From Bdellovibrionota bacterium (GTDB lineage: Bacteria; Bdellovibrionota_C; UBA2361; JAAYZI01), in contig JBMNIF010000002.1 in the NCBI GenBank assembly GCA_050950765.1, positions 96,001-160,000 of the forward strand: a DNA stretch of 64,000 nt. Direction: 5' to 3'. Positions 34,538 through 53,231 of the stretch are shown here, in pieces. Each line of letters begins with the position of its first letter. Position 1 is the stretch's first letter. The notes beneath the pieces are model-generated. The model was not told where the DNA came from and made no database searches. It was given only the letters and a program-made list of their open reading frames with translations. The translations under genes and the position numbers were made by a program.

Positions 34538-35875
34538 TTATAAATATCCTAAGCTTTTTAATTCTCTTATCTGTTTTTTATTAAACTCAATCTGTGGCTT
34601 ATCGTTATCAGTTTGTAATTCTACTTTATTGGAAAAATCCATCATCTCTTTTTTCAGAAGTTCTATCCTAGTTTGGTAACTTCCCTCATTTATAAGATCA
34701 TTTTCTTCTAAAGGATCTAAACTAAGATCATAAAACTCATAAGTATTAGTCTTTCTATCTAAAATCAATTTATCTAATTTTTTAATTATGGCAATTTTAT
34801 CTACATTTCTAATTTTTTGCGCAGATTTAAACGAGACCTCTGCAAAAACAGAACGTGAGGCAGGGATCTCTTTTGTTTTTATTAAATCGATCCCCAAAAG
34901 TGGGGAGCTTTCGTTGAAGAGACCTAAAATAGTGGGAAGGATATCTATCTGAGAAACATTACCGCGAATAACTTTATGACTTAAATTTTTTGCCCTGATT
35001 AATAATGGAACATGCATTAGTTCGTTATAAAGAGAACGGGTGTGTCCTATCCAACCTCTATCTAAAAGCTCCTCTCCGTGGTCTGCCGTAAAAATAATAA
35101 TGGTATTATCCAGCAATTTTGAGTCTTCAAGATATCTGTATAGACGCAACAAAGCACGTTCTGTAAAAGTTATTTCTTCGTGATAGAGGGCGTTTAATTG
35201 AATTTTATCAGTTTGAGTAAAGGTAGAAGATTTTCTAACAGCAACTATATCTACATCGCCTGAAAAAACGCCTTTATAGTTTGGGTCTGTATAGTAGATA
35301 TCAGAATGATCCTTGTAATTTATATGTGGATCAAAATAATGAGCGAACATAAAAAAAGGCTTTTTTGGATCTCTTGCTTTTAAAAATGAAATGACCTCAT
35401 CTGTAACAAGGTCACCAACTATAGTATTGTGCTGATCTTTTTTATTGACGTTTTTACAAATTTGAAAATCTTTCGTTATTCCACTGGATCTATTAATAAT
35501 CGAACTCGAGATTACAGACATACTTTGGTATCCCTTTGTCTGTAAATAGTTAGGAATCGTCTTGATATTATCTGCTAGGACACTACTCATCTTTGTTACA
35601 CCATGATCCCTTGGATATAACCCCGTTAAAATGGTTGCTACGCTAGGTTTTGTCCATGAAGAAGCAGCATAACTATCACGAAAAATCCAACTATTTGGTG
35701 AGATTGTCTTTAAAAATTCGCTTTCGATTGTAATTTCTGAGTTATACAAAGGCAGATGCTTTGCAGCTAAAGTATCTACAACTATCAAAAGAATATTAGG
35801 ATCTTGTTGAGCCTTTTTTGTGCAAGAAGTAAACGCAAATAACAAAACTACTGCCGCAACAAAGAATTTACGCAT
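34538..35875 (-). CDS. Sulfatase-like lipoprotein (alkaline phosphatase superfamily)
   Basis: Lipobox FTSC, PNILLIVVDTL, WTKPS...LTG (Thr in place of the CxPxR Cys), HYFDPH, TADHGE, LKSLGYL. Confidence 0.85.
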   Translation of the reverse strand: MRKFFVAAVVLLFAFTSCTKKAQQDPNILLIVVDTLAAKHLPLYNSEITIESEFLKTISPNSWIFRDSYAASSWTKPSVATILTGLYPRDHGVTKMSSVLADNIKTIPNYLQTKGYQSMSVISSSIINRSSGITKDFQICKNVNKKDQHNTIVGDLVTDEVISFLKARDPKKPFFMFAHYFDPHINYKDHSDIYYTDPNYKGVFSGDVDIVAVRKSSTFTQTDKIQLNALYHEEITFTERALLRLYRYLEDSKLLDNTIIIFTADHGEELLDRGWIGHTRSLYNELMHVPLLIRAKNLSHKVIRGNVSQIDILPTILGLFNESSPLLGIDLIKTKEIPASRSVFAEVSFKSAQKIRNVDKIAIIKKLDKLILDRKTNTYEFYDLSLDPLEENDLINEGSYQTRIELLKKEMMDFSNKVELQTDNDKPQIEFNKKQIRELKSLGYL

Positions 35876-35940
35876 AAATATACCCTTTATGATAAATCTA
35901 AAAGGTAAATAATATGCCGAGATTATATTCTGTCAAATTC

Positions 35941-35973
35941 ATTTCAATCCACGCGCTTCGTAAGAAGCGCGAC
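35941..35973 (-). CRISPR. Solitary type I-C CRISPR repeat
   Basis: Minus strand GTCGCGCTTCTTACGAAGCGCGTGGATTGAAAT: 5' GTCGC, 8-bp stem, 3' GTGGATTGAAAT, the layout of I-C repeats. Confidence 0.8.
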
Positions 35974-36037
35974 AGTAAAATCATTAGATAAAAAGCATTT
36001 TACTTTTTTTATCCTTAATGATTTTTATTACATCTTC

Positions 36038-36143
36038 TAGACTATAATATTTCAGGCTTCCCAGTTCAATATCCATTATTCCTTCAATCTGATGCCTCAA
36101 AGTGGCGAACTCTGCTGTAATAATCACGCACTAAAAATATAGA
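36038..36143 (-). pseudogene. cas2: Fragment of a type I-C cas2
   Basis: Hand translation: SIF/(frameshift)*CVIITAEFATLRHQIEGIMDIELGSLKYYSL, resembling the I-C Cas2 pattern SVFEC...F..L...L..I.D...DSLR.Y.L; lies upstream of the lone I-C repeat on the same strand. Confidence 0.6.
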
Positions 36144-36158
36144 TTAAGTTAATCTATA
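36138..36158. terminator. AT-rich palindrome at the trailer end of the V-A array
   Basis: tatagattaa-g-ttaatctata. Confidence 0.4.
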
Positions 36159-36463
36159 ATTACATTCCCCCTTTTTCATTTTTAATAAGGAGCATATCTA
36201 CAATAGTAGAAATTTAAATAAGACCTTAAACTCGCACCTCGCGTGAGGTGCGTGGATTATCTACAATAGTAGAAATTTAAATAAGGTCTTAAACTAACAT
36301 AGCGCTATCTAGCCCACTGATATCTACAATAGTAGAAATTTAAATAAGGTCTTAAACAGATATAAATATCTGGAACTGTGCTGGTTCAGCGTGAAATGGA
36401 CATTTGAGGTGCTGAAAAAAGCTACTATAATAGCCTGAGTGATATTAACTAATGGGGTGAATA

Positions 36464-36769
36464 ATGGGAAAACATTTTAGTGCAGAAGATAAGGTTAAGA
36501 TACTGAAGGAGCATTTATTAGGAAATAAGCCGTTATCGAGTTTATGCGATAAATACGGCGTACACATTAGTACATTTTATGAATGGCAGAAGCTATTATT
36601 TGAGGGAGCTATCCAAATTTTTGAGCGGAATAAAAATGGTAGGAAAGAAGAAAAGAAGCAAGCTGAACGGATAGATATTTTGGAGAAGAAGCTAACGAAG
36701 AAGGATTCTGCGCTAGCGGAGCTTTTGGGGCTTCATATAGATTTAAAAAAAAAGCTTGGGGAGCTTTAA
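36464..36769 (+). CDS. IS3 OrfA (HTH plus leucine zipper)
   Basis: FSAEDKVKIL...CDKYGVHISTFYEW; ends at an A9G slippery run (36745-36754) overlapping an AAAGCT/AGCTTT hairpin. Confidence 0.85.
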   Translation: MGKHFSAEDKVKILKEHLLGNKPLSSLCDKYGVHISTFYEWQKLLFEGAIQIFERNKNGRKEEKKQAERIDILEKKLTKKDSALAELLGLHIDLKKKLGEL

Positions 36770-36804
36770 CGAAGCGTTGGGTTGAGCCACAAATACGAGA
36801 TGAG

Positions 36805-37767
36805 GTGATAGATTTTGTACATGAATGGCAAGAGAAATCAGAAATGAAGCGGGAGATGTTTATAAAGAGGTTAGGGATAACACGGAGCAAGTACTATGCT
36901 TGGGAAAAACATTACGGTAAAGAGAACTTTCATAACGGGCTAATTCCGAGAGATTACTGGCTATTACCCAGTGAAAGGGAGGCTATTATTAAGTATTATT
37001 TAGAGCACTCAAGAGTAGGTTATCGAGCATTAACATACATGATGCTTGACGCAGATGTTGTGGCAGTATCCCCTGCGACGACCTATAGAGTATTGAAAAG
37101 TGCTGGCTTAATGCGTTGCTGGAATGGTTTAAAAAGCAAGAAAGGGACAGGATTTGAACAACCACTTAACCCGCATGAACATTGGCATACGGATGTTTCA
37201 TATATCAATATTTGTGGCACATTTTACTATTTTATTGGAGTTTTGGATGGATGTAGTCGGTATTTAGTTGCATGGGACATTAGAGAATCGATGAAAGAAA
37301 TAGATATTGAAGTAGTATTACAAAAGGCTAGAGAAAGTTTTCCAGACGCAAGACCGCGAATTATTTCAGATAACGGTTCAGCCTATATTTCAAAAGAGTT
37401 TAAGAATTTTATAAAGATATCTGGTATGACTCACGTCAAGACATCACCGTTCTATCCACAATCGAACGGTAAGATGGAGAGATTTAATGGGACATTAAAA
37501 GTAGAAGCGATACGACCTAACACTCCAGTATCACTTGATGATGCGAAAACTATAGTGAGTAAGTTTGTCGAAGAATATAACAATCAGCGGTTACATTGTG
37601 CGCTAGGTTATATAACACCAAATGATAGATTGAATAACAAGCAAGAGGAGATATTTAGAGCTCGAGACAGCAAATTGGAAGCTGCTAGAGCACATCGCAA
37701 GTTAGTAAGAGAGGGGTACCCCTCTCTTACTAACTACAACATTGAACAACAAGCTCAGGTGTGTTAA
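36805..37767 (+). CDS. IS3 OrfB DDE transposase (fused to OrfA by -1 frameshift)
   Basis: WHTDVSY, ISDNGSAY, SNGKMERFNGTLK. Confidence 0.92.
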   Translation: MIDFVHEWQEKSEMKREMFIKRLGITRSKYYAWEKHYGKENFHNGLIPRDYWLLPSEREAIIKYYLEHSRVGYRALTYMMLDADVVAVSPATTYRVLKSAGLMRCWNGLKSKKGTGFEQPLNPHEHWHTDVSYINICGTFYYFIGVLDGCSRYLVAWDIRESMKEIDIEVVLQKARESFPDARPRIISDNGSAYISKEFKNFIKISGMTHVKTSPFYPQSNGKMERFNGTLKVEAIRPNTPVSLDDAKTIVSKFVEEYNNQRLHCALGYITPNDRLNNKQEEIFRARDSKLEAARAHRKLVREGYPSLTNYNIEQQAQVC

Positions 37768-38209
37768 CTAGGGTTTTGTGGCATGACAAAAGTCCATTTC
37801 CATCAGAGGCAGAACAGAACCACGATATATCTACAATAGTAGAAATTTAAATAAGGTCTTAAACATTCCGAAAAGTACTCCCACAACCTTATCTACAATA
37901 GTAGAAATTTAAATAAGGTCTTAAACACCTATGAGGACGGATCTTATAGTTTTATCTACAATAGTAGAAATTTAAATAAGGTCTTAAACGTTAGTTATTA
38001 TTCGAGGCAAAGGTAAAATCTACAATAGTAGAAATTTAAATAAGGTCTTAAACTAGTTATTCTAATAATAATTTAATCTTATCTACAATAGTAGAAATTT
38101 AAATAAGGTCTTAAACGATAAATCGCAGAGTTAAAACAGCCCGATCTACAATAGTAGAAATTTAAATAAGGTGATCTACAATAGTAGAAATTTAAATAAG
38201 GTCTTAAAC

Positions 38210-38334
38210 CCTTACGGTTAATAACCTTATCTTTTTTGTATGATTTTTACCAGAAAAACCACTTTTTTTGCCAAATTTAGTCAATTTAAGACCTTATTTT
38301 TCACATTTCCAAAATTAAGACTGAGGTTTGCATC
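38210..38334 (-). promoter_or_regulatory. CRISPR leader
   Basis: AT-rich gap between the cas2 stop and the first repeat; contains a 15-nt inverted copy of the repeat 5' end. Confidence 0.75.
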
Positions 38335-38610
38335 TCAATCTACGACCAGTATGTCAGCATTTTCATTTTCTGCATAGCCCCAACGTGTGATTTTACAATT
38401 TTGACTAGTTTCTATTATTATTACACTATCTGTTTGGCTAAATCGTTTTTCAAAATTATTCGTTATTTCATTCATTATATTATCAAGCAAACGTTTGCTA
38501 TTCTTTATTTTAAATACTGAATATTGCAGTCGATAACCAAATTTTTTTAGATACTTTGAAAAATGAGTTCGCAATTTATTATCTTGTATGTCATAACTAA
38601 TTATTATCAT
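38335..38610 (-). CDS. cas2: Cas2
   Basis: IISYDI, RLQYSVF. Confidence 0.95.
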   Translation of the reverse strand: MIIISYDIQDNKLRTHFSKYLKKFGYRLQYSVFKIKNSKRLLDNIMNEITNNFEKRFSQTDSVIIIETSQNCKITRWGYAENENADILVVD

Positions 38611-39574
38611 AAGAAATCACCGCTTTTGGAAATGTATCTATATCCTTCCCCTTCATAAACCATCTGTAATATTGCTGAATATAATCAAATATAATTGTCC
38701 TGTTTTTTACTATTTCTTCTAAGATTAAAATTATAAATTTTCTACTATCCTCCCAGCTTAAATTATATTGATAGTTATTAATAATAAACTTATAATTTTT
38801 TGCCTGCCCAAGATTTATAATTTTTCTTATTTTATAATCAATAATCGGTCTAAATGGCTCTATTATATCACACACTAAAGACTTTCTCTTATAAAACTCT
38901 TTGTGCAGGTTCCCTTTATAAACATCAAATCCGTAGATATTTAATATTGCTTCCAAATAATTAAACAAAACAGTATAGCCGATATCTAATAATAAATTTA
39001 TCTTATCCCTTTTTATCCTCGGCTGTCTGCCATGCCACTCAAAGTCTTTAAATAAACGATTAAAATATACCTTAGCCCCAACTCCCTCATATCCCATTAT
39101 CTCATAAGAAGTAATTTTAGCATTATTTTTGATTTCTTTAATCAGTTCTTCTAAATTTTTTATTCCATCAAAAACACTCTTATCTCTTAATTTTTTTAAT
39201 ATAAATACCTGATTTTCAATCTTATTTATTATAATTTGTTTTGCAATTTCAGTTTCATTTATATTTGTATATTGCTTCTTTCTTAATAGAGTATTGCCTT
39301 CAAGCGAAAAATTAATTGTTGAATACACTTTAAAACTTGCTGAAAATAAAACAATTGAAAAACCAAATTTTTTACTTCGTAGTATTATTCCTGAAGTAAG
39401 AGTTATTCCCCCCACAACAAACACAGCAAATAGCCTATAACAACTAAGTTGTACTTTTATCTTTTTATCTGAATCCGTTATTACTATATTATCATTCTTA
39501 AATGATATTTTATCACCATCTTGAGGAAAAACTAAAATAACCTTCTTTTCTATAAAATCAGGCTTTGTTAACAC
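38597..39574 (-). CDS. cas1: Type V-A Cas1
   Basis: MGYEGVGAKVYF, NLLLDIGY, GNLH, SLVCDIIEPFR. Confidence 0.95.
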   Translation of the reverse strand: MLTKPDFIEKKVILVFPQDGDKISFKNDNIVITDSDKKIKVQLSCYRLFAVFVVGGITLTSGIILRSKKFGFSIVLFSASFKVYSTINFSLEGNTLLRKKQYTNINETEIAKQIIINKIENQVFILKKLRDKSVFDGIKNLEELIKEIKNNAKITSYEIMGYEGVGAKVYFNRLFKDFEWHGRQPRIKRDKINLLLDIGYTVLFNYLEAILNIYGFDVYKGNLHKEFYKRKSLVCDIIEPFRPIIDYKIRKIINLGQAKNYKFIINNYQYNLSWEDSRKFIILILEEIVKNRTIIFDYIQQYYRWFMKGKDIDTFPKAVISYDNN

Positions 39575-40128
39575 ATCAAACTCCTGTCACAAGCAGGTTC
39601 ATATATACATTTTTTACATTTTTCCACATTTGTTTGCTGAAAATTTTCCATATTAAATTCATGTATTTCTTTAATGAGCGCCTTAAAACGATTATCCATA
39701 ATAAGATCATCTCTAGGTAATAAAATGTCGTAATTTTTATTATCTTTCAAACTATGGAATCTGATTTTTTTAACATCATAGCCCATTTCTGAAAGTGCAT
39801 AATATTGTGCATAAACTTGAAAAATATATCCGTCATATATGGTAGTAATTTTATTTTTCCTCTCCGTTAAAATGCCTTTGTCTATATCAAAAACATCTAT
39901 TTTCCCCCGTATCCCAAAAGTTTGAGAATAAACATCAATCCCTTGCAATATATTTTTTTTATCTGAATAAGAGCTCTTATCAATTGTTTTATGTGCATTC
40001 ATGCCGTCAATTTGGCAAGTTGATTGATAAAGATTTTTATCTAATGCCCCGTATAATTTATGAAAATAGATTGATACAGGACAAAAGATAAAATCATTTA
40101 AATAAGAGATAAGGATAATTTCTTCCAT
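39568..40128 (-). CDS. cas4: Type V-A Cas4
   Basis: NDFIFCP, GKIDVFD, ERK, QVYAQ, CKKCIYEPAC. Confidence 0.95.
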   Translation of the reverse strand: MEEIILISYLNDFIFCPVSIYFHKLYGALDKNLYQSTCQIDGMNAHKTIDKSSYSDKKNILQGIDVYSQTFGIRGKIDVFDIDKGILTERKNKITTIYDGYIFQVYAQYYALSEMGYDVKKIRFHSLKDNKNYDILLPRDDLIMDNRFKALIKEIHEFNMENFQQTNVEKCKKCIYEPACDRSLMC

Positions 40129-40130
40129 TT

Positions 40131-43100
40131 TTAGGCTTTATCTAATCCTTGTACATAAGAAAGCCACTCTTGTTTATTTATGGCAAAATTAACTTTCCTT
40201 CCAGTTGATTCTCTAATTCTTTCTAATATCATCAATCCTTTTCGTGCAATATTATAAGCGCCATTTGCATCCGCATCTAACGGTAAGTTTTTATCTTGTT
40301 TCCTTGAATCATAAAATTCTCCAGACTTATTTTTCACAGGAGACAAAATATAATCTTCTCTTGAATTTGTTATACTATTTCTTAACTGTAATAGTAACTT
40401 AAATAAAGAATAAAATCCTAAGTAACCATCCTTTTCTTTTGTCGCACTAAAAAATTTCGCTTTTTCATTTTGGAGTATACCTTCTTTTATACGGCTTAAG
40501 TCTATCTCATATCTTTTAAATAATTCTTTAAACTCATCTGTTAAATTTATTTCTTCATTATCCCAATTACTATTTTTTTCTGGATTCCTAAAAGAACGGA
40601 CTCTTTCTCCATAAGAACAAAGAGTCCACTCATCTCTTATTCCATAGCTTCCGCCTGTAAAATTAGAATATTTGAATATAAATTCAAAATAATTTTCTTC
40701 TTCGTTATATCTTATATCATCAAATTTTTCGATAAAACTTTTATCAACTTTTTTTAAATCAAATAAATTTACAAAGCCTGTTGTCGGGTCAATCTTGCTT
40801 GTGCACCAAGCAGGAATATAAAAAATGACTCCATTTTGTGCACCTTTAGAATCAGGCTTTGCAAGTTGATAAGCATTTAGTATACCGCCTTGATCTTTTT
40901 TATTAGCAACATCCTTACTTATAAGATAAGATAATTTATTTACAAGCATTGTTTCAAATTTATCATAAACCTGTTTTTCAACTTTTTTTCGAGAATTTTT
41001 AAATCCTCCACTTAAGTCTTCAAGCACAATTATTGCATTATATTTAAGCATAAGCTTAACAATCTTATGAACAACTTGGCTCATATAACCTTCTTTGAGC
41101 TCTTTTATTGTTTCAATTTGATCCCAGCTTTTCCTTGCCTCATCCCTATCTTTTTCTTTTTTATTAAGCGCTGCACGATAATCTGTTTCATATGTAACTC
41201 CATTATATTCATTAACTATATTATTAAGGGAGCACTGTTCAACAATTTCACCTTCTGAATTAATAACAGATAAATAAATTAAATGTCTTTCCCCTCTGTC
41301 TATCCCTATAAGATAAATATCTTTGTTTGCTTTTAAACTATCGTTAACAATTTCATTAATATTATTAAATCCTTTACATTTAAAATTCATCGCCACAGGA
41401 ACATGAAATAAAAATTTATCTACTGAATAGCGCCTATCTTTTATTAAATCATATTCAAACTTACTTTCTTTTTTTGGATTTTTTTCATTTTTGTTTGGAA
41501 TAGGTTCATTAGCTGGATGTGTAATTTTTGCCTCTATACTTTTTTTCCGATAAAAAATTTCTGCTTGACCATTTAATTTATAGACGACATCTTTTAAATT
41601 ATCTTCATCAAATAAGGCTTTCCAATACATTGTATGCAAATTAGGTTTTCCCTTACTGTATTCTGAAAAATCCTTATTGTAGATTTTAAATAGATACAAT
41701 TTCCCATCATTAACTAATTGATCTATATAACCTGCAGAGATGTTTTTAAAATTTATTTTATACCCTTGTTGCTCAACTTCTTTATAAAATTGGCTTATAT
41801 CTTCATATGAAGATGTTTCACTAAATCTAAAATTAAATTTTTTCCAATCATCATGTTTTTCAATAGATCTTTTAAAAAAATCTATTAATTCATGACAAAA
41901 ATCTATATCAAATTTCTCCCCCTTTTTATGACACCCGTCTTGATATTTCTCTAATAATTCAACAGATGGATTAAAATTTTCTCTTCCCTTCTCAGATGAA
42001 ATAAAAACTTTCGGCAACATTTTATTAGCACCAGGTAATAGTTTATACTCCATCTTTTTATAGCTGTTTTTTTGATCTAGTTCTTCCCCTATTTCACTAA
42101 AAATTCCCCTATCCCTACTATCTATAATGCCCAAATAATAAATTCCGTTTCTTTCAAATATCGTGCATGAATTGTCTTTTTCTTTATTTAAATCCCATCC
42201 ATCTAAAAGAGTAGGGTTTTTAAAGTTAAGCTTCATCTTCTCAGTCGAATACGGTTTTTGAGTTAAATAATTTCTCACCTTATTATAAAGAGGAATTATT
42301 TCTTTCAAATCGTCGTATCTCAATAATTCATAAAAATTATTATCAGTTTCTATCTCTTCAACTTTCGGGACTAAAAGTTTTACAAAGTCGTGAAGCTCTT
42401 TTAAATTATCAAGAAAATTTTTAATTATATTTTTTTTAGCTCCATCTTTAACTAAATTTTTTAATCCTTCTCCATAATCTTCATTTTGAATTTCATCAAA
42501 CTTTTTATAAGCCTCCTCTATTCCTGATTTAATGCTTTTTATAACTGACCCATTTGGTTCAGTTTCACAAACCATATCGCTAGTTAAATGCTCTTCAAAA
42601 TATTTTATAAGCTTCTCTTTATTTTCTTTATCATATCTCAAGACGAGGCTTTCAAGGTATTCAACAGATAATACTTTATCTTTCTTTAAGCACTTTCCTC
42701 GCTCTGCAATATATTTTTCAGAATCGATATTTTTATTTTTCCCTGTATAATTTTCATTATATTCCCTTTCTCTTAGACTATTGAGATAGCTCCAATCGTT
42801 ATAAATCTTCTTTGATATATTTGTTAAGGACTCAGCATTAATATAAATTTTACTTAACTCAAAATCTCTTATATTTTTAAATGCATAAACAAGTCCTTTG
42901 TTCTCATTACTAAAAAGTAGATCATTAATTTTGATATAGTAATCTTGGATCTCTTTTATCAACTGTTCATCATCTTCAATCTTATCAATTTTAAATGAAG
43001 CTGTATTTGTATCACTTAGTATCTGTTTATATAAAAGTTTTAATTTAGGGAGTTTTTTACTTTTATCTTCTTGTTGATTTTGATTATGTAAATTTACAAG

Positions 43101-43907
43101 CTCATTTATTCCTTGAATTTTCTTATTCCCTTCTTCAGTTTTTCCAGAAATCGCAAGATTATAATTTTCTATCTGATCTTGTGTAAGGATATCTTTATAT
43201 TTTTCTACAACACTAAATAATTCATCTGTATTTAAGCTTAAATTTCTTTCTATTTTATCCTTAATTTCTGGAATTGCTTCTTTTATTTTTTCAAAATATT
43301 TTATATTTTTTATAAAAGTTGGTAAATTTTGATCGATCAATCTAAATGATATGGCTGTAGATTTATCTTCTTTTGAATAAAAATTTTCTCTATTCTTATT
43401 ATAACCTGTAAAATATGTTGTGAATTTATTAAATATTTCTATATCACTTAATACTTCTTTATCCTCGGCGTAAAAAACTTTTAGATAAGAATTGATGATC
43501 TCTTTACCAAACAGCCCTTTATATTCATCATCCTCTGTAAAACTTTCAGAAATCATTGTGCGTAACTTTTCTTTAACTTTATTAAGAGGCGAATCTTCTT
43601 TATTACTTTTATTTTTACTCTGTGTATCTGTTTTTAAAGTTTCTATATATTCTTTTTCATATTCTTTTAATAAACCAGCAAAAGCATCGTTGCTATTTAA
43701 TTTTTTCAAACATCTATCTATAAAAATTTTATGATACTCATCACAATATTTTTTAACGACTTTAAACTTTTCTGCTTTTAGCTCATCTTCTTCTAGAATA
43801 TTTTTCTCAAAATATTCTTTCGTTCTGCCTTGCGGCTGCAATTCAAATCTCAATGTTTTTGAAACTTGGTATAAATTGTGCATTTCATCAAATAATTTTT
43901 TACTCAT
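40131..43907 (-). CDS. cas12a: Cas12a (Cpf1), 1258 aa, catalytic motifs intact
   Basis: YQVSKTLRFEL, YKLLPGANKMLPKV, RuvC IGIDRGERHL / VLEDL / DADANGAYNIARKG, RNase region THPANEPIPNKN. Confidence 0.98.
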   Translation of the reverse strand: MSKKLFDEMHNLYQVSKTLRFELQPQGRTKEYFEKNILEEDELKAEKFKVVKKYCDEYHKIFIDRCLKKLNSNDAFAGLLKEYEKEYIETLKTDTQSKNKSNKEDSPLNKVKEKLRTMISESFTEDDEYKGLFGKEIINSYLKVFYAEDKEVLSDIEIFNKFTTYFTGYNKNRENFYSKEDKSTAISFRLIDQNLPTFIKNIKYFEKIKEAIPEIKDKIERNLSLNTDELFSVVEKYKDILTQDQIENYNLAISGKTEEGNKKIQGINELVNLHNQNQQEDKSKKLPKLKLLYKQILSDTNTASFKIDKIEDDEQLIKEIQDYYIKINDLLFSNENKGLVYAFKNIRDFELSKIYINAESLTNISKKIYNDWSYLNSLREREYNENYTGKNKNIDSEKYIAERGKCLKKDKVLSVEYLESLVLRYDKENKEKLIKYFEEHLTSDMVCETEPNGSVIKSIKSGIEEAYKKFDEIQNEDYGEGLKNLVKDGAKKNIIKNFLDNLKELHDFVKLLVPKVEEIETDNNFYELLRYDDLKEIIPLYNKVRNYLTQKPYSTEKMKLNFKNPTLLDGWDLNKEKDNSCTIFERNGIYYLGIIDSRDRGIFSEIGEELDQKNSYKKMEYKLLPGANKMLPKVFISSEKGRENFNPSVELLEKYQDGCHKKGEKFDIDFCHELIDFFKRSIEKHDDWKKFNFRFSETSSYEDISQFYKEVEQQGYKINFKNISAGYIDQLVNDGKLYLFKIYNKDFSEYSKGKPNLHTMYWKALFDEDNLKDVVYKLNGQAEIFYRKKSIEAKITHPANEPIPNKNEKNPKKESKFEYDLIKDRRYSVDKFLFHVPVAMNFKCKGFNNINEIVNDSLKANKDIYLIGIDRGERHLIYLSVINSEGEIVEQCSLNNIVNEYNGVTYETDYRAALNKKEKDRDEARKSWDQIETIKELKEGYMSQVVHKIVKLMLKYNAIIVLEDLSGGFKNSRKKVEKQVYDKFETMLVNKLSYLISKDVANKKDQGGILNAYQLAKPDSKGAQNGVIFYIPAWCTSKIDPTTGFVNLFDLKKVDKSFIEKFDDIRYNEEENYFEFIFKYSNFTGGSYGIRDEWTLCSYGERVRSFRNPEKNSNWDNEEINLTDEFKELFKRYEIDLSRIKEGILQNEKAKFFSATKEKDGYLGFYSLFKLLLQLRNSITNSREDYILSPVKNKSGEFYDSRKQDKNLPLDADANGAYNIARKGLMILERIRESTGRKVNFAINKQEWLSYVQGLDKA

Positions 43908-44105: not shown

Positions 44106-44693
44106 ATGCAAAATATCTTGGAGCTTTCAAAACAAAATCAGCGCCGTGCTTATGAAGTGATAGAAGAAAGCGGCGTTTTTAGTGCTTGGCAAAGTATCGG
44201 TGCAGAAGTGCAGATAGTTGGTTCTTTGCGAATGGGACTCTTAATGAAACATAGAGATATCGATCTTCAGATCTATACAGACCCACTGATAATTTCAGAA
44301 AGCTTCTCCGTTATAAGTAAATTGGCTGAAAATCCCGCCTTCAAAGAAGTAATATACAGAAATATGATTAGCCCCACAGAAGACTACCTTGAATGGCACG
44401 CTTATTACTTGGATAAAAATAACGCCCTCTGGCAACTAGATATGATCCACTTTTTAAAAGGCTCTAAATATTACGGCTATTTTGAAAATGTTGCAGACAG
44501 AATAAAAGCCGTCCTCACAGAAGAAACAAAAAATACCATCTTACGCTTAAAATACGAAACTCCCGAAAATGAAAAGATCTTGGGGCTCGAATACTATCAA
44601 GCCGTTATCAAAGATAACGTGCAAACTTATCAGGATTTTACAGAGTGGCGGAAGAATCACAATATAGATGAGATCGCAACTTGGGTGCCGTAA
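44106..44693 (+). CDS. Nucleotidyltransferase-fold protein
   Basis: GS...DID (VGSLRMGLLMKHRDIDL) and a third Asp (WQLDM): Pol-beta NTase signature. Confidence 0.7.
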   Translation: MQNILELSKQNQRRAYEVIEESGVFSAWQSIGAEVQIVGSLRMGLLMKHRDIDLQIYTDPLIISESFSVISKLAENPAFKEVIYRNMISPTEDYLEWHAYYLDKNNALWQLDMIHFLKGSKYYGYFENVADRIKAVLTEETKNTILRLKYETPENEKILGLEYYQAVIKDNVQTYQDFTEWRKNHNIDEIATWVP

Positions 44694-51494: not shown

Positions 51495-53231
51495 ATGCAA
51501 GAAGTAGTAAAAGAATCGAACTACAAACCACGTCAGGAACATTTTATCGGAAGTGTTTTTCAAGTTGGGCTATCATCAATTCAATTTTCTTTCAGTAGCC
51601 TTTCCAACAGTAATAAAAATTCTGAAAACAGAGAAACTCCTTTGACAATACCGACTGATGTCGGTGTTGGTGATTACGTGGTTATTGCCTGCCTAAACCA
51701 CTCCACTTTGGGCCAGATCACAGATATGCAGATCAAGGCTACCTCCACTTCAAACGGAAAGCAGGCTTTACCTATCGCAACCGTCGAACTTTTTGCGAGT
51801 ATGAGTTACGCCGATGGTATGATATCATCCGGAATTAAGGGATCTCCAAAATTATCCGCTCGTGTTTATGTAGCACCTCCGGAACTAATTCAAAGAATCA
51901 CAACAAGTAACTATCAACGCCCCGATGAGGTACAAGATGTTTTGCTAGAAGTCGGTGCTTTGCCCAACCAAGAAGAGACACCCCTCTTCTTCTCTCCCGA
52001 CAGCCTCTTTGGTCGTCATCTCGCCATCGTCGGCACCACAGGTTCCGGTAAAAGCTGGTCCATTGCACGTATTCTGCAAGAAACAGCGAAATTTAACTCT
52101 AAAGTTATTCTGTTTGATGCTAGTGGAGAGTTTTCAGATATGCCTAAAGGAACGATCCACGTCTCAATCGGTTTAGATCCAGATCCACCGAAACACGTCT
52201 ATCAGGTCTCCGTCCCCTATACAGAACTACGCGAAAGTGACCTTTTTGCGATATTTAAACCTACCGGACGAAGTCAATTTCCGAAGTTAAGACAAGCTAT
52301 AAAAAGTTTAAAGTTGGCAAAGCTTGCACCACACATCGCCATCGATGGTCTCATTATAAAAGCACACCGCACAAAACTTGATTACGAAGAGGAGTACCGT
52401 CGCTTTGCTGCTGAACTTGAATCACCTACGGCTAATTTTAACATTCACTGTTTGTCAGAGCAGATTGAAAATGAATGTGTCAATCCGCAACGGAGTCAGT
52501 TGGAAACAGGTACTTGGGGAGGACCCAACAGCGAAGATTTCTCCGATTGTGTACCACTCATCAACCGCATTAACGATATTATACACTCTCCCAACCTATC
52601 CCCCATCTTTAATCCAGGTAAGAAACATTCCCTCTTCACAGTCATCAAGCACTTTTTAACTGATGATTCTCAACGTATTTTACGAATCTCCCTGCAATAC
52701 CTCTCTTTTGATCATAATGCACGTGAGATTATCGCTAATGCTATCGGAAGACACCTTTTGGAGATCGCTCGTAGCGGTTTCTTTAGGCAGCAACCTTTAC
52801 TCGTTGTAGTTGATGAAGCACATCAATTCTTAAATGATAATATCTTAACGGGTGGACATTTCCCCCTTGATTCATTCGGTTTTATTGCAAAAGAAGGGCG
52901 TAAATACGCTATCAATATCTGCTTAGCAACTCAACGTCCTCGCGATATTCCAGAAGGGGTAATAAGTCAGATGGGCACCTTAATAGTCCATAGACTAATC
53001 AATGACCACGATAGACAACTGATAGAACGCGCCTCTGCTTCTATGGATCACAACACGGCAGAGAGTATCCCTGTGCTCGCTCCAGGTGATGCTATTATTC
53101 TAGGTGTTAACTTCCCCATCCCACTTTTAATGAAGATTACACCACCACAAAATAGACCAAACTCCAGAGGCCCTGAATATCAAAAGTTCTGGAGAAAAAC
53201 TAAACCCGAAGTAAAAACAGAGTTGGAGTAG
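51495..53231 (+). CDS. HerA/DUF87-family ATPase with N-terminal HAS-barrel
   Basis: HLAIVGTTGSGKS, FDASGEF, VVDEAH, KEGRKY, ATQRP, HRLIN. Confidence 0.85.
   Translation: MQEVVKESNYKPRQEHFIGSVFQVGLSSIQFSFSSLSNSNKNSENRETPLTIPTDVGVGDYVVIACLNHSTLGQITDMQIKATSTSNGKQALPIATVELFASMSYADGMISSGIKGSPKLSARVYVAPPELIQRITTSNYQRPDEVQDVLLEVGALPNQEETPLFFSPDSLFGRHLAIVGTTGSGKSWSIARILQETAKFNSKVILFDASGEFSDMPKGTIHVSIGLDPDPPKHVYQVSVPYTELRESDLFAIFKPTGRSQFPKLRQAIKSLKLAKLAPHIAIDGLIIKAHRTKLDYEEEYRRFAAELESPTANFNIHCLSEQIENECVNPQRSQLETGTWGGPNSEDFSDCVPLINRINDIIHSPNLSPIFNPGKKHSLFTVIKHFLTDDSQRILRISLQYLSFDHNAREIIANAIGRHLLEIARSGFFRQQPLLVVVDEAHQFLNDNILTGGHFPLDSFGFIAKEGRKYAINICLATQRPRDIPEGVISQMGTLIVHRLINDHDRQLIERASASMDHNTAESIPVLAPGDAIILGVNFPIPLLMKITPPQNRPNSRGPEYQKFWRKTKPEVKTELE

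What the first reader, a model, noticed from the sequence alone, without database searches (positions are those of the whole stretch)
35941..36143. Relic type I-C locus (cas2 fragment plus one repeat) abutting the V-A array
Seen: a disrupted frame resembling the C-terminal half of I-C Cas2 (36038-36143, with stop and frameshift at the SVFEC motif). About 65 bp downstream on the same strand is a single I-C repeat, giving the canonical cas2-leader-repeat order. The surviving repeat has the TTTC PAM and a 9-nt seed match (AATCCACGC) to the V-A guide, then 8 mismatches. Inference: V-A replaced a I-C system at this site and only a non-cleavable repeat variant survived. Alternatives: Cas12a binds here without cutting, 66 bp upstream of the sulfatase start (possible repression), or the repeat acts as a solitary repeat unit like the RNA anti-CRISPRs.
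Basis: partly seen in the sequence, partly recalled or inferred. Interest (0 to 1): 0.78.

Follow-up and report, generated by a model that had tools for sequence, protein, structure and literature searches.

The report
Type I-C CRISPR stump beside Cas12a array
A broken piece of a cas2 gene and one surviving repeat are the leftovers of a type I-C CRISPR system, lying just behind a foreign Cas12a CRISPR locus whose oldest guide was itself copied from a type I-C repeat, which hints that one CRISPR system once aimed at another.

Summary
On the minus strand, 36142..36029 is a fragment of a I-C-type cas2 (positions 37-74 of a ~97-residue profile I built from 20 I-C Cas2 proteins). A TAG stop sits where the E of SVFEC should be. 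At 35973..35941 lies a single, structurally perfect I-C repeat, the only one in the 2.64 Mb genome. No I-C effector genes remain. The stump abuts the trailer of an IS-split type V-A locus that looks foreign: cas genes are 26-28% GC against 40% for the genome, and Cas12a was found in 1 of 110 genomes of the phylum. The oldest V-A spacer (36258..36232) is the body of a I-C repeat, one mismatch from real repeats, with its TTTC PAM supplied by the repeat's GAAA end. It differs from the local repeat at 8 positions, including two compensatory stem pairs, so it was not copied from the surviving repeat. Ten metagenome loci (five V-A repeat groups) carry similar repeat-derived spacers, always at the trailer end, but 0 of 9 V-A arrays sampled without that bias do. 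Best reading: a non-functional deletion scar of a I-C locus. Its loss was possibly driven by Cas12a self-targeting of I-C repeats. Regulatory and RNA anti-CRISPR readings are poorly supported.

The parts
35941..35973 (-). Solitary type I-C CRISPR repeat, GTCGCGCTTCTTACGAAGCGCGTGGATTGAAAT, with a perfect 7-bp stem and a 4-nt loop
   Evidence: It is unique in the genome. It is present in diverged strains, with 35955 G>A in runs X10 and X13.
35942..35972 (+). Protospacer-like site for the last V-A spacer: TTTC PAM (35942-35945), a 9-nt seed match, then 8 mismatches in 18 positions
   Evidence: (pair I4, 27 nt, 70% complementary), and direct reading.
35909..35936 (-). Sigma-70-like promoter TTGACA-16-TATTAT in front of the sulfatase gene, starting 5 nt after the repeat
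   Evidence: 11 of 12 matches. This is a consensus match only.
35974..36028 (-). AT-rich (16% GC) stretch between the cas2 fragment and the repeat; its last 7 nt, TTTTACT, resemble I-C leader ends
   Evidence: Overall leader likeness is not significant (301 of 500 shuffles reach it).
36029..36142 (-). Pseudogene fragment of a I-C-type cas2 (profile positions 37-74 of about 97), with an in-frame TAG at 36133..36131
   Evidence: The strains in X10 and X13 read CAG at the stop and V for I at 36124..36122.
36196..36231 (-). Terminal V-A repeat (variant GGTC in place of GACC)
36232..36258 (-). Oldest V-A spacer, AATCCACGCACCTCACGCGAGGTGCGA: the reverse complement of a I-C repeat body
   Evidence: It is 1 mismatch from the repeats of 11 of 64 loci, and its hairpin is intact.
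36259..36357 (-). Two V-A repeats and one spacer (trailer-side part of the array)
36377..37824 (+). IS3-family insertion sequence (orfA 36464-36769, orfB 36805-37767) inside a V-A spacer
   Evidence: Contigs break at 36377 and read depth is high there. The right end is inferred from the inverted repeat I read.
37829..38209 (-). Leader-side part of the V-A array (6 full repeats plus a truncated copy at 38173..38144)
38335..43907 (-). V-A cas operon: cas12a 43907..40131, cas4 40128..39568, cas1 39574..38597, cas2 38610..38335
   Evidence: GC is 0.26-0.28.
34538..35875 (-). Sulfatase gene downstream of the stump

Best explanation
The feature is a deletion scar of a type I-C CRISPR-Cas locus and has no present function.

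SHOWN.
- About 38 codons from the middle of a I-C-type cas2 survive, stopped by TAG.
- One intact I-C repeat survives. It keeps a leader-type upstream junction and is followed directly by non-CRISPR DNA (the sulfatase promoter). This is what an array looks like after collapsing to one repeat.
- The cas2 3' end and most of the leader are missing.
- No I-C effector genes are left in the genome.
- The scar lies directly behind the trailer of a compositionally foreign V-A locus.
- The oldest V-A spacer is a PAM-correct copy of a I-C repeat of another sequence variant.

INFERRED.
- A I-C system and the incoming Cas12a system once met, either in this lineage or in the donor.
- Every I-C repeat carries a built-in Cas12a PAM, because GAAA(C/T) reads (G/A)TTTC on the other strand.
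- A guide taken from a I-C repeat would therefore cut every unit of a matching array.
- Cells would survive by deleting the array and the cas genes.
- The remaining repeat has 8 mismatches to the guide and is not a substrate.
- The V-A cassette now occupies the site.
For: - Cas2 fragment: custom profile rank 2 of 103,489 ORFs, E=0.068. None of 5000 shuffles reaches the score. The match is collinear with I-C Cas2 residues 41-77 in 10 of 20 proteins at blastp E<=0.003, and it is not collinear with the genome's own V-A Cas2. The read-through match rises to 18.3 bits.
- Repeat: it fits the I-C pattern and is unique in the genome.
- Leader-type junction: TTTTACT is within 1 mismatch of TTTTGCT. The same holds for 12 of 33 real leaders but only 2 of 1036 internal spacer ends.
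- No Cas8c, Cas7 or other I-C protein match in the genome.
- V-A looks foreign: GC is 0.26-0.28 against 0.40, and Cas12a was found in 1 of 110 genomes of the phylum. I-C Cas8c occurs in 4 of 91 genomes of the order.
- Spacer: 26 of 27 positions identical to the repeats of 11 of 64 I-C loci. It starts exactly after the TTTC.
- Array collapse to one repeat is seen directly for the V-A array in a diverged strain (run X13, one contig joining 38174 to 36182).
- Swaps of CRISPR type that leave a stump: L094/L099 and L091/L096/L098.
- Repeat-derived spacers sit at the last or second-last unit, or after a solitary V-A repeat, in 10 of 10 metagenome loci falling into 5 repeat groups.
Against: - The curated Cas2 profiles do not see the fragment, and its genome-wide E-value is only 0.068.
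- The spacer differs from the surviving repeat at 8 of 27 positions, including two compensatory pairs, so a direct link between this spacer and this locus is not shown.
- No exact source of the spacer was found (0 of 64 loci identical; 0 viral contigs match the pattern).
- No strain with an intact I-C locus at this site appeared among the four runs laid.
- No relative shares the gene neighbourhood.
- The 60 nt upstream of the repeat are not leader-like overall (301 of 500 shuffles reach the score).
- Repeat-derived trailer spacers are uncommon. They occur in 0 of 9 V-A arrays taken without that bias: 8 distinct trailers from 401 genomes of one family, plus one plasmid.
- I-C repeats also occur on viral contigs, as 19 arrays and 17 hairpin-bearing solitary copies among 80 loci read. 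A mobile element could therefore be the spacer's source.
- The PAM of this particular Cas12a was not tested. Two other spacers found no protospacer.
Confidence: 0.6

Rival explanations
1. Relic and spacer are unrelated. The I-C locus decayed or was deleted for ordinary reasons. Separately, the V-A system took its I-C-repeat spacer from an invading mobile element that carried I-C repeats, such as a phage solitary repeat unit, a mini-array or a plasmid-borne I-C system. Alternatively, the V-A system brought the spacer along from its donor.
For: The spacer and the local repeat belong to different repeat variants (8 mismatches). Viral contigs do carry I-C repeats: 19 arrays, and 17 of 61 single hits with the GTCGC hairpin. 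A I-C RNA anti-CRISPR on a prophage is described in passages of PMC10651486. Similar spacers occur in V-A arrays with no visible I-C relic nearby.
Against: This would place two independent I-C-derived sequences within 300 bp of each other in a genome with no other I-C trace. No viral contig matches the spacer's repeat family (0 hits). The trailer-end position in 10 of 10 loci is not predicted by ongoing phage targeting.
Confidence: 0.25
2. The Cas12a complex carrying the last spacer binds the relic without cutting, using the TTTC PAM and a 9-10 nt seed. It thereby represses the adjacent sulfatase promoter, in the manner of CreR-type guides.
For: The PAM and seed lie 5 nt upstream of a TTGACA -35 box, 66 nt before the start codon. 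CreR of Moraxella bovoculi targets a TTTA-flanked site next to the -35 element of the cas12a promoter (passages of bioRxiv 10.1101/2023.03.10.532045). Strains X10 and X13 have a 10-nt match.
Against: The match is just the conserved I-C 3' handle, so it is expected from common descent. Only 9-10 contiguous pairs are present, and stable Cas12a binding is recalled (not tested here) to need about 15 or more. The guide is an ordinary full-length spacer in a normal array, not a degenerate mini-array. The X13 strain has lost the spacer altogether while keeping the relic and the sulfatase gene.
Confidence: 0.05
3. The solitary repeat is a working solitary repeat unit: either an RNA anti-CRISPR or a crRNA-like regulator that uses I-C Cascade.
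For: The hairpin and the 11-nt handle are intact. The polymorphism at 35955 keeps the stem pair (G-C against G-U). Such units exist in I-C loci and on phages (passages of bioRxiv 10.1101/2024.12.27.630466; passages of PMC10651486).
Against: No Cas5c, Cas7 or Cas8c is present in the genome to process or use it. The setting is chromosomal and fixed across strains, not on a mobile element. One pair-preserving transition is not evidence of selection.
Confidence: 0.03
4. The hairpin serves only as a terminator or insulator between read-through from the V-A array and the sulfatase promoter.
For: The hairpin is stable (-15 to -16 kcal/mol for the 61-nt context, z about -3) and sits between the two transcription units.
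Against: There is no T-run after the stem on either strand, and the scan found 0 terminator-like sites. The sequence is explained in full by I-C repeat ancestry.
Confidence: 0.04

Closest known systems
Degenerate or lost CRISPR-Cas loci that leave orphan repeats and cas pseudogene fragments
   Same: A truncated cas gene plus a single repeat, no effector genes, and presence across strains as a neutral scar.
   Different: Here the scar abuts another CRISPR type whose oldest spacer is derived from the lost type's repeat.
Self-targeting spacers and CRISPR-driven genome deletion (for example Vercoe et al. 2013, recalled and not read here; PMC7708048 and PMC10810201 seen only in search listings)
   Same: A spacer whose target would lie in the host chromosome, and survival through loss of the target.
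   Different: The target is the repeat of another CRISPR type, so it is multi-copy by nature. The causal link is inferred, not shown.
CreR / crRNA-like regulatory guides of V-A systems (bioRxiv 10.1101/2023.03.10.532045, passages; bioRxiv 10.1101/2024.10.29.618823, abstract, passages and section 6)
   Same: A Cas12a guide with a PAM-flanked partial match next to a -35 box. In the metagenome loci, several repeat-derived units keep only the 13-20 PAM-proximal nt and follow degenerate V-A repeats.
   Different: Known V-A CreR genes lie upstream of the cas operon and target the cas12a promoter. These units lie at the array trailer and match repeats of other CRISPR types. The window's spacer is full length.
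Solitary repeat units / RNA anti-CRISPRs, including RacrIC1 (PMC10651486, passages), and I-C crRNA-like RNAs of CRISPR-supervised immune systems (bioRxiv 10.1101/2024.12.27.630466, passages)
   Same: A single I-C repeat with an intact hairpin and handle.
   Different: The repeat is chromosomal, next to a cas2 pseudogene, in a genome without I-C Cas proteins.

Membership tests
Type I-C CRISPR repeat | 32-33 nt unit with GTCGC at the 5' end, an internal palindromic stem with a 4-nt loop, and the 3' handle (G)TGGATTGAAA(C/T) | tested here: met
   It fits the pattern of 64 real I-C array loci. The stem has 7 perfect pairs.
Type I-C CRISPR repeat | Occurs as a tandem array with spacers | tested here: not met
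   There is a single copy in the whole genome.
Type I-C CRISPR-Cas locus | Signature genes cas8c (Csd1), cas7 (Csd2), cas5, cas3 | tested here: not met
   PF09709 and PF05107 give no match in the genome at E<=10. tblastn with a relative's I-C proteins finds nothing beyond a Cas1 cross-hit to the V-A cas1 gene and one unrelated non-Cas locus.
Cas2 (I-C-associated) | Sequence match to Cas2 profiles | tested here: inconclusive
   Curated profiles give no hit. The I-C-specific profile gives E=0.068 genome-wide at rank 2, none of 5000 shuffles reaches the score, and read-through gives 18.3 bits.
Cas2 (I-C-associated) | Full-length open frame of about 97 residues including the N-terminal strand | tested here: not met
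   Only profile positions 37-74 align. There is an in-frame TAG, and the N-terminal 36 and C-terminal 23 positions are absent.
Type V-A CRISPR-Cas | Cas12a with RuvC, Nuc, REC and PI domains; cas4-cas1-cas2; 36-nt repeats ending in TCTACT-N3-GTAGAT | tested here: met
CreR-type regulatory guide (V-A) | Degenerate mini-array near the cas promoter whose spacer part partly matches a PAM-flanked site in the promoter it represses | tested here: inconclusive
   A PAM plus 9-nt match lies next to a -35 box. However, the guide is a normal array spacer and the target is not the cas12a promoter. Binding was not testable here.
RNA anti-CRISPR (Racr) / solitary repeat unit | Encoded on a virus or plasmid and mimics the repeat of a Cas system present in the host | tested here: not met
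   The context is chromosomal and fixed in strains from several studies. No I-C Cas proteins are present.

The most novel reading that the evidence does not exclude
Incoming Cas12a systems can acquire, among their first spacers, the repeats of resident type I arrays. Every such repeat carries a built-in TTTC PAM through the shared ATTGAAA(C/T) handle. The Cas12a system thereby shreds or evicts the resident array and takes over the site. The repeat-derived spacers at V-A trailer ends (this window plus 10 metagenome loci in 5 repeat groups, some also aimed at a 30-nt I-B-like repeat family) would be the fossils of this conflict between CRISPR systems. A variant of the same reading is that they are long-kept guides against mobile elements that carry solitary repeat units.
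Probability: 0.3. Interest if true: 0.8.

Novelty: new variant of a known kind. Interest (0 to 1): 0.55.

Why it matters
A CRISPR stump on its own is ordinary genome decay. What is unusual is the pairing. A Cas12a array's oldest guide was copied from the repeat of another CRISPR type, and it lies beside the wreck of that type. The same kind of guide recurs at the trailer end of unrelated Cas12a arrays. If the link is causal, CRISPR systems compete by targeting each other's arrays. That would help explain why some CRISPR types rarely coexist and how CRISPR cassettes replace each other at one chromosomal site. My five full-text searches found no paper describing spacers derived from another CRISPR type's repeats. 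That library holds only open PubMed Central papers and bioRxiv.

Tried and rejected
- Rfam scan of 35700-38400: only a sub-threshold CRISPR-DR9 hit on the repeat (15.6 bits, E=8.8).
- Synteny in relatives: 41 genomes searched with the sulfatase protein.
- Exact source of the spacer or of the solitary repeat: not found in genome contigs (nearest 1 and 4 mismatches) or in viral contigs.
- Protospacers for two other V-A spacers in viral contigs: none, so this Cas12a's PAM was not confirmed.
- Overall leader homology of the 60 nt upstream of the repeat: not significant.
- Other I-C gene relics in the window or genome, sought by tblastn with a relative's I-C proteins: none.
- RNA evidence: no RNA holder was listed by the look-up of sequencing runs, so expression of the relic or of the last crRNA could not be examined.
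- An X8 contig with a loose end at 36021 could not be resolved.
- Plasmid collection searched with Cas12a: a single distant hit, whose array has no repeat-derived trailer spacer.
- Attempt to search the metagenome records behind L091-L097 for I-C arrays or cas12a: these records are not held.
- Atlas look-up of a housekeeping protein gave no usable taxonomy.
- Earlier notes of this scan held nothing on this locus.
- The idea that the trailer units form a universal V-A module was dropped after the sample of 0 of 9 arrays.

Full report
LAYOUT. Read on the minus strand, the window holds a complete type V-A locus.
- cas12a lies at 43907..40131, with all Cas12a domains.
- cas4, cas1 and cas2 run down to 38335.
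- The array has 36-nt repeats, GTTTAAGACCTTATTTAAATTTCTACTATTGTAGAT.
- An IS3-family element (about 36377-37824) is inserted in a spacer and splits the array. Six full repeats plus a truncated copy lie on the leader side. Three repeats lie on the trailer side (36357..36196).
- The last repeat is a variant (GGTC for GACC).
- Behind the trailer come 53 nt of unassigned DNA, the finding (36142..35941), a sigma-70-like promoter, and a sulfatase gene (35875..34538).

THE REPEAT. 35973..35941 reads GTCGCGCTTCTTACGAAGCGCGTGGATTGAAAT. I scanned genome contigs with a pattern that covers both this sequence and the last V-A spacer. It found 64 stretches, almost all tandem I-C arrays in named bacteria. 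Their repeats share GTCGC, a 7-bp stem, a 4-nt loop and GCGTGGATTGAAA(T/C). The solitary copy has every conserved position and a perfect stem. It is 4 mismatches from the nearest real repeats (6 of 64 loci) and is the only copy in the 2.64 Mb genome.

The 7 nt before it, TTTTACT, are within one mismatch of TTTTGCT. The same is true of 12 of 33 real I-C leaders but of only 2 of 1036 distinct internal spacer ends. It therefore looks like the leader-proximal repeat. The longer upstream stretch is not leader-like (301 of 500 shuffles reach the score).

THE CAS2 FRAGMENT. Pfam and NCBIfam Cas2 models do not detect it, either as a protein or in a six-frame search of the genome. I therefore took the Cas2 proteins encoded beside 23 of the I-C arrays (20 distinct) and built a profile. 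I then searched all 103,489 stop-to-stop ORFs of at least 15 residues in the genome.
- The ORF 36130..35987 came second (E=0.068, 16.1 bits). It was just behind the real V-A Cas2, and nothing else scored better than E=8.
- The match covers profile positions 41-74.
- None of 5000 shuffles of the fragment reaches its score.
- It aligns collinearly with residues 41-77 of I-C Cas2 proteins. The best are 36-39% identical, with tblastn E=1.8e-5 against the small locus set.
- It does not align collinearly with the genome's own V-A Cas2.
- With X at the stop codon, the alignment extends to LYF-X-C against SVFE(V/C), covering positions 37-74 at 18.3 bits.

In real loci, 33-34 residues run from the DSL motif to the stop, and a leader of 136-344 nt then precedes the first repeat. 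Here only 55 nt separate the last aligned codon from the repeat. The cas2 3' end and most of the leader have therefore been deleted.

WHAT IS MISSING. Cas8c (PF09709) and Cas7 (PF05107) give no match in the genome. The I-C proteins of a relative find nothing but a Cas1 cross-hit to the V-A cas1. The second Cas2 of the genome belongs to a type II locus elsewhere on the contig.

THE V-A SPACER. The oldest spacer (36258..36232) reads AATCCACGCACCTCACGCGAGGTGCGA in crRNA sense.
- Its reverse complement is the body of a I-C repeat, one loop mismatch from the repeats of 11 of 64 loci.
- It begins exactly after the position where the repeat's GAAA(T/C) end reads (A/G)TTTC. That is the usual Cas12a PAM (TTTV; recalled from the literature and not tested for this enzyme, since searches found no protospacers).
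- This precise boundary argues for a normal PAM-guided acquisition rather than a recombination accident.
- Against the local repeat the guide has the PAM, 9 matched seed positions and then 8 mismatches.
- Four of the eight mismatches are two compensatory stem pairs and four lie in the loop. The spacer therefore comes from another I-C repeat variant, not from a sibling of the surviving repeat.

IS THE V-A LOCUS A NEWCOMER? Its genes have 26-28% GC, against 40% for the genome and 38-42% for the DNA beyond cas12a. Cas12a was found in 1 of 110 genomes of the phylum that are at least 80% complete, and that one is this genome. I-C Cas8c occurs in 4 of 91 genomes of the order. The cas2 fragment has 36% GC, but 114 nt is too short to assign it to either side.

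POPULATIONS. Seventeen runs hold at least half of the sampled words of this stretch; the 20 holders, from digesters, bioreactors, wastewater and a landfill, come from 14 studies. I laid the contigs of four of them on the window.
- The relic is present in a near-identical strain (X3, 0 differences over 35908-36286).
- It is also present in strains about 1.4% diverged (X10, X13).
- The diverged strains read CAG instead of the TAG stop (36133) and V instead of I at the next-but-one codon, which is closer to Cas2.
- They also carry 35955 G>A. This turns one stem pair from G-C into G-U and lengthens the seed match to 10 nt.
- The density of differences in the relic is like that in the sulfatase gene, so nothing argues for constraint.
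- One X13 contig joins 38174 to 36182. In that strain the whole V-A array, the IS and the I-C-derived spacer are replaced by a single repeat.
- That is a directly observed example of the array collapse inferred for the I-C stump.

A WIDER PATTERN. I scanned metagenome contigs for a V-A repeat end followed by AATCCACGC. This gave 10 loci, which fall into five groups by V-A repeat sequence.
- In all 10 loci the I-C-derived unit is the last or second-last unit of the array (arrays of 7, 15, 25, 41 and 80 repeats) or follows a solitary V-A repeat.
- Most keep 13-20 PAM-proximal nt of the I-C repeat and then diverge. My search pattern fixed the first 9 nt, so this polarity may be partly an artefact.
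- Neighbouring units carry the reverse complement of other repeats, again starting right after TTTC.
- One of these matches 20 nt of GTATTAATCGTACCTTTATGGAATTGAAAT. That sequence forms real arrays and also occurs as solitary copies on many phage contigs.
- Another matches the repeat of an array that occupies the same chromosomal site in a related genome. L094 has a 41-repeat V-A array there and L099 has about 21 repeats of another type. Both end in the same degenerate V-A unit, and their flanks are 89-93% identical.
- In L098 a type II locus and its array precede the same V-A trailer module that ends the V-A arrays of L091 and L096.

The pattern is not general, however. In 401 genomes of one family I found 10 V-A arrays, and the 8 distinct visible trailers carry no such spacer. 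Nor does the array of a Butyrivibrio plasmid. That gives 0 of 9 in all.

READING. The stump is a real and probably functionless scar of a I-C locus.
- A solitary-repeat function needs I-C Cas proteins or a mobile-element setting, and neither is present.
- The hairpin has no T-run.
- Cas12a-guided repression of the sulfatase promoter has the right geometry. It rests, however, on a 9-10 nt match that common descent explains, and one strain has lost the guide while keeping the relic.
- The proposed history is inferred: Cas12a acquired a guide from a I-C repeat, every unit of a matching array became a target, and cells survived by deletion.
- The main weakness is that the guide and the surviving repeat belong to different variants.
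- A mobile-element source of the spacer is a serious rival, because I-C repeats occur on viral contigs as 19 arrays and 17 hairpin-bearing single copies.

LITERATURE.
- V-A CreR guides lie upstream of the cas operon and target the cas12a promoter (bioRxiv 10.1101/2023.03.10.532045; passages).
- Viral CRISPR-like regulatory RNAs mimic them (bioRxiv 10.1101/2024.10.29.618823; abstract, passages and section 6).
- I-C solitary repeat units regulate defence genes through Cascade (bioRxiv 10.1101/2024.12.27.630466; passages).
- Phage solitary repeat units act as RNA anti-CRISPRs, including a I-C one (PMC10651486; passages).
- None of these passages, and none of five searches, describes spacers taken from the repeats of another CRISPR type.
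- Supplements were not opened and might list such cases.

Noticed in passing
window 36377-37824: An IS3-family insertion sequence (orfA and orfB on the + strand) sits inside a V-A spacer and cuts the array in two. Its read depth is about six times that of the flanks in run X3, so it is multi-copy. A strain in run X13 lacks it at this site.
   Followed up: partly
window 38144-38209: The first V-A repeat is followed directly by a truncated 30-nt copy of the repeat with no spacer between them. The leader also holds an inverted partial repeat at 38285-38299.
   Followed up: no
window 36196-36231: The terminal V-A repeat differs from the consensus by GACC to GGTC. This is the reverse complement of the same four bases, so it could be a 4-nt inversion or two substitutions.
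   Followed up: no
L003 9205-14129 (G000:C2:1221204-1226128): A second CRISPR-Cas locus of type II layout: a 1071-aa ORF at the Cas9 position (not itself scanned), a 295-aa ORF at the cas1 position (not scanned), a cas2 that hits TIGR01573, and an array of about 7.6 units with period 67.
   Followed up: partly
L085 6300-7260 (G008, same order): The I-C array of a relative has leader-side units only 48 nt long (spacers of about 15 nt) before normal 65-70 nt units.
   Followed up: no
L101-L125 (viral contigs): About 22 large phage contigs, mostly from one sample, each carry a single copy of the 30-nt CRISPR repeat ...AATCGTACCTTTATGGAATTGAAA in a conserved context. They are candidate solitary repeat units (RNA anti-CRISPRs).
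   Followed up: partly
L094 1-2640 and L099 100-1760: The same chromosomal site holds a 41-repeat V-A array in one genome and a roughly 21-repeat array of another type (GTTTGTGACCCGCATATAGGGGATTGAAAC) in a genome about 90% identical. Both end in one shared degenerate V-A unit. In L099 a small ORF of about 83 codons lies between the two.
   Followed up: partly
window 51495-53231: A HerA-type ATPase (DUF87) matches a PADLOC HerA model at E=2.4e-142. It may belong to a defence system, but its partner gene was not examined.
   Followed up: no
window 44106-44693: A 195-aa ORF between cas12a and the glycosyltransferase genes has no Pfam or PADLOC match.
   Followed up: partly
L090 901-937: An abiF RNA motif (Rfam RF03085, 45.1 bits, above the gathering score) lies about 265 nt beyond the V-A trailer. 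An AbiH gene lies on the same record upstream of the array (L092).
   Followed up: no
L003 16106-16821: A cluster of 79-86 nt tandem repeats (TGGTGCCACCC...) lies downstream of the type II locus.
   Followed up: no
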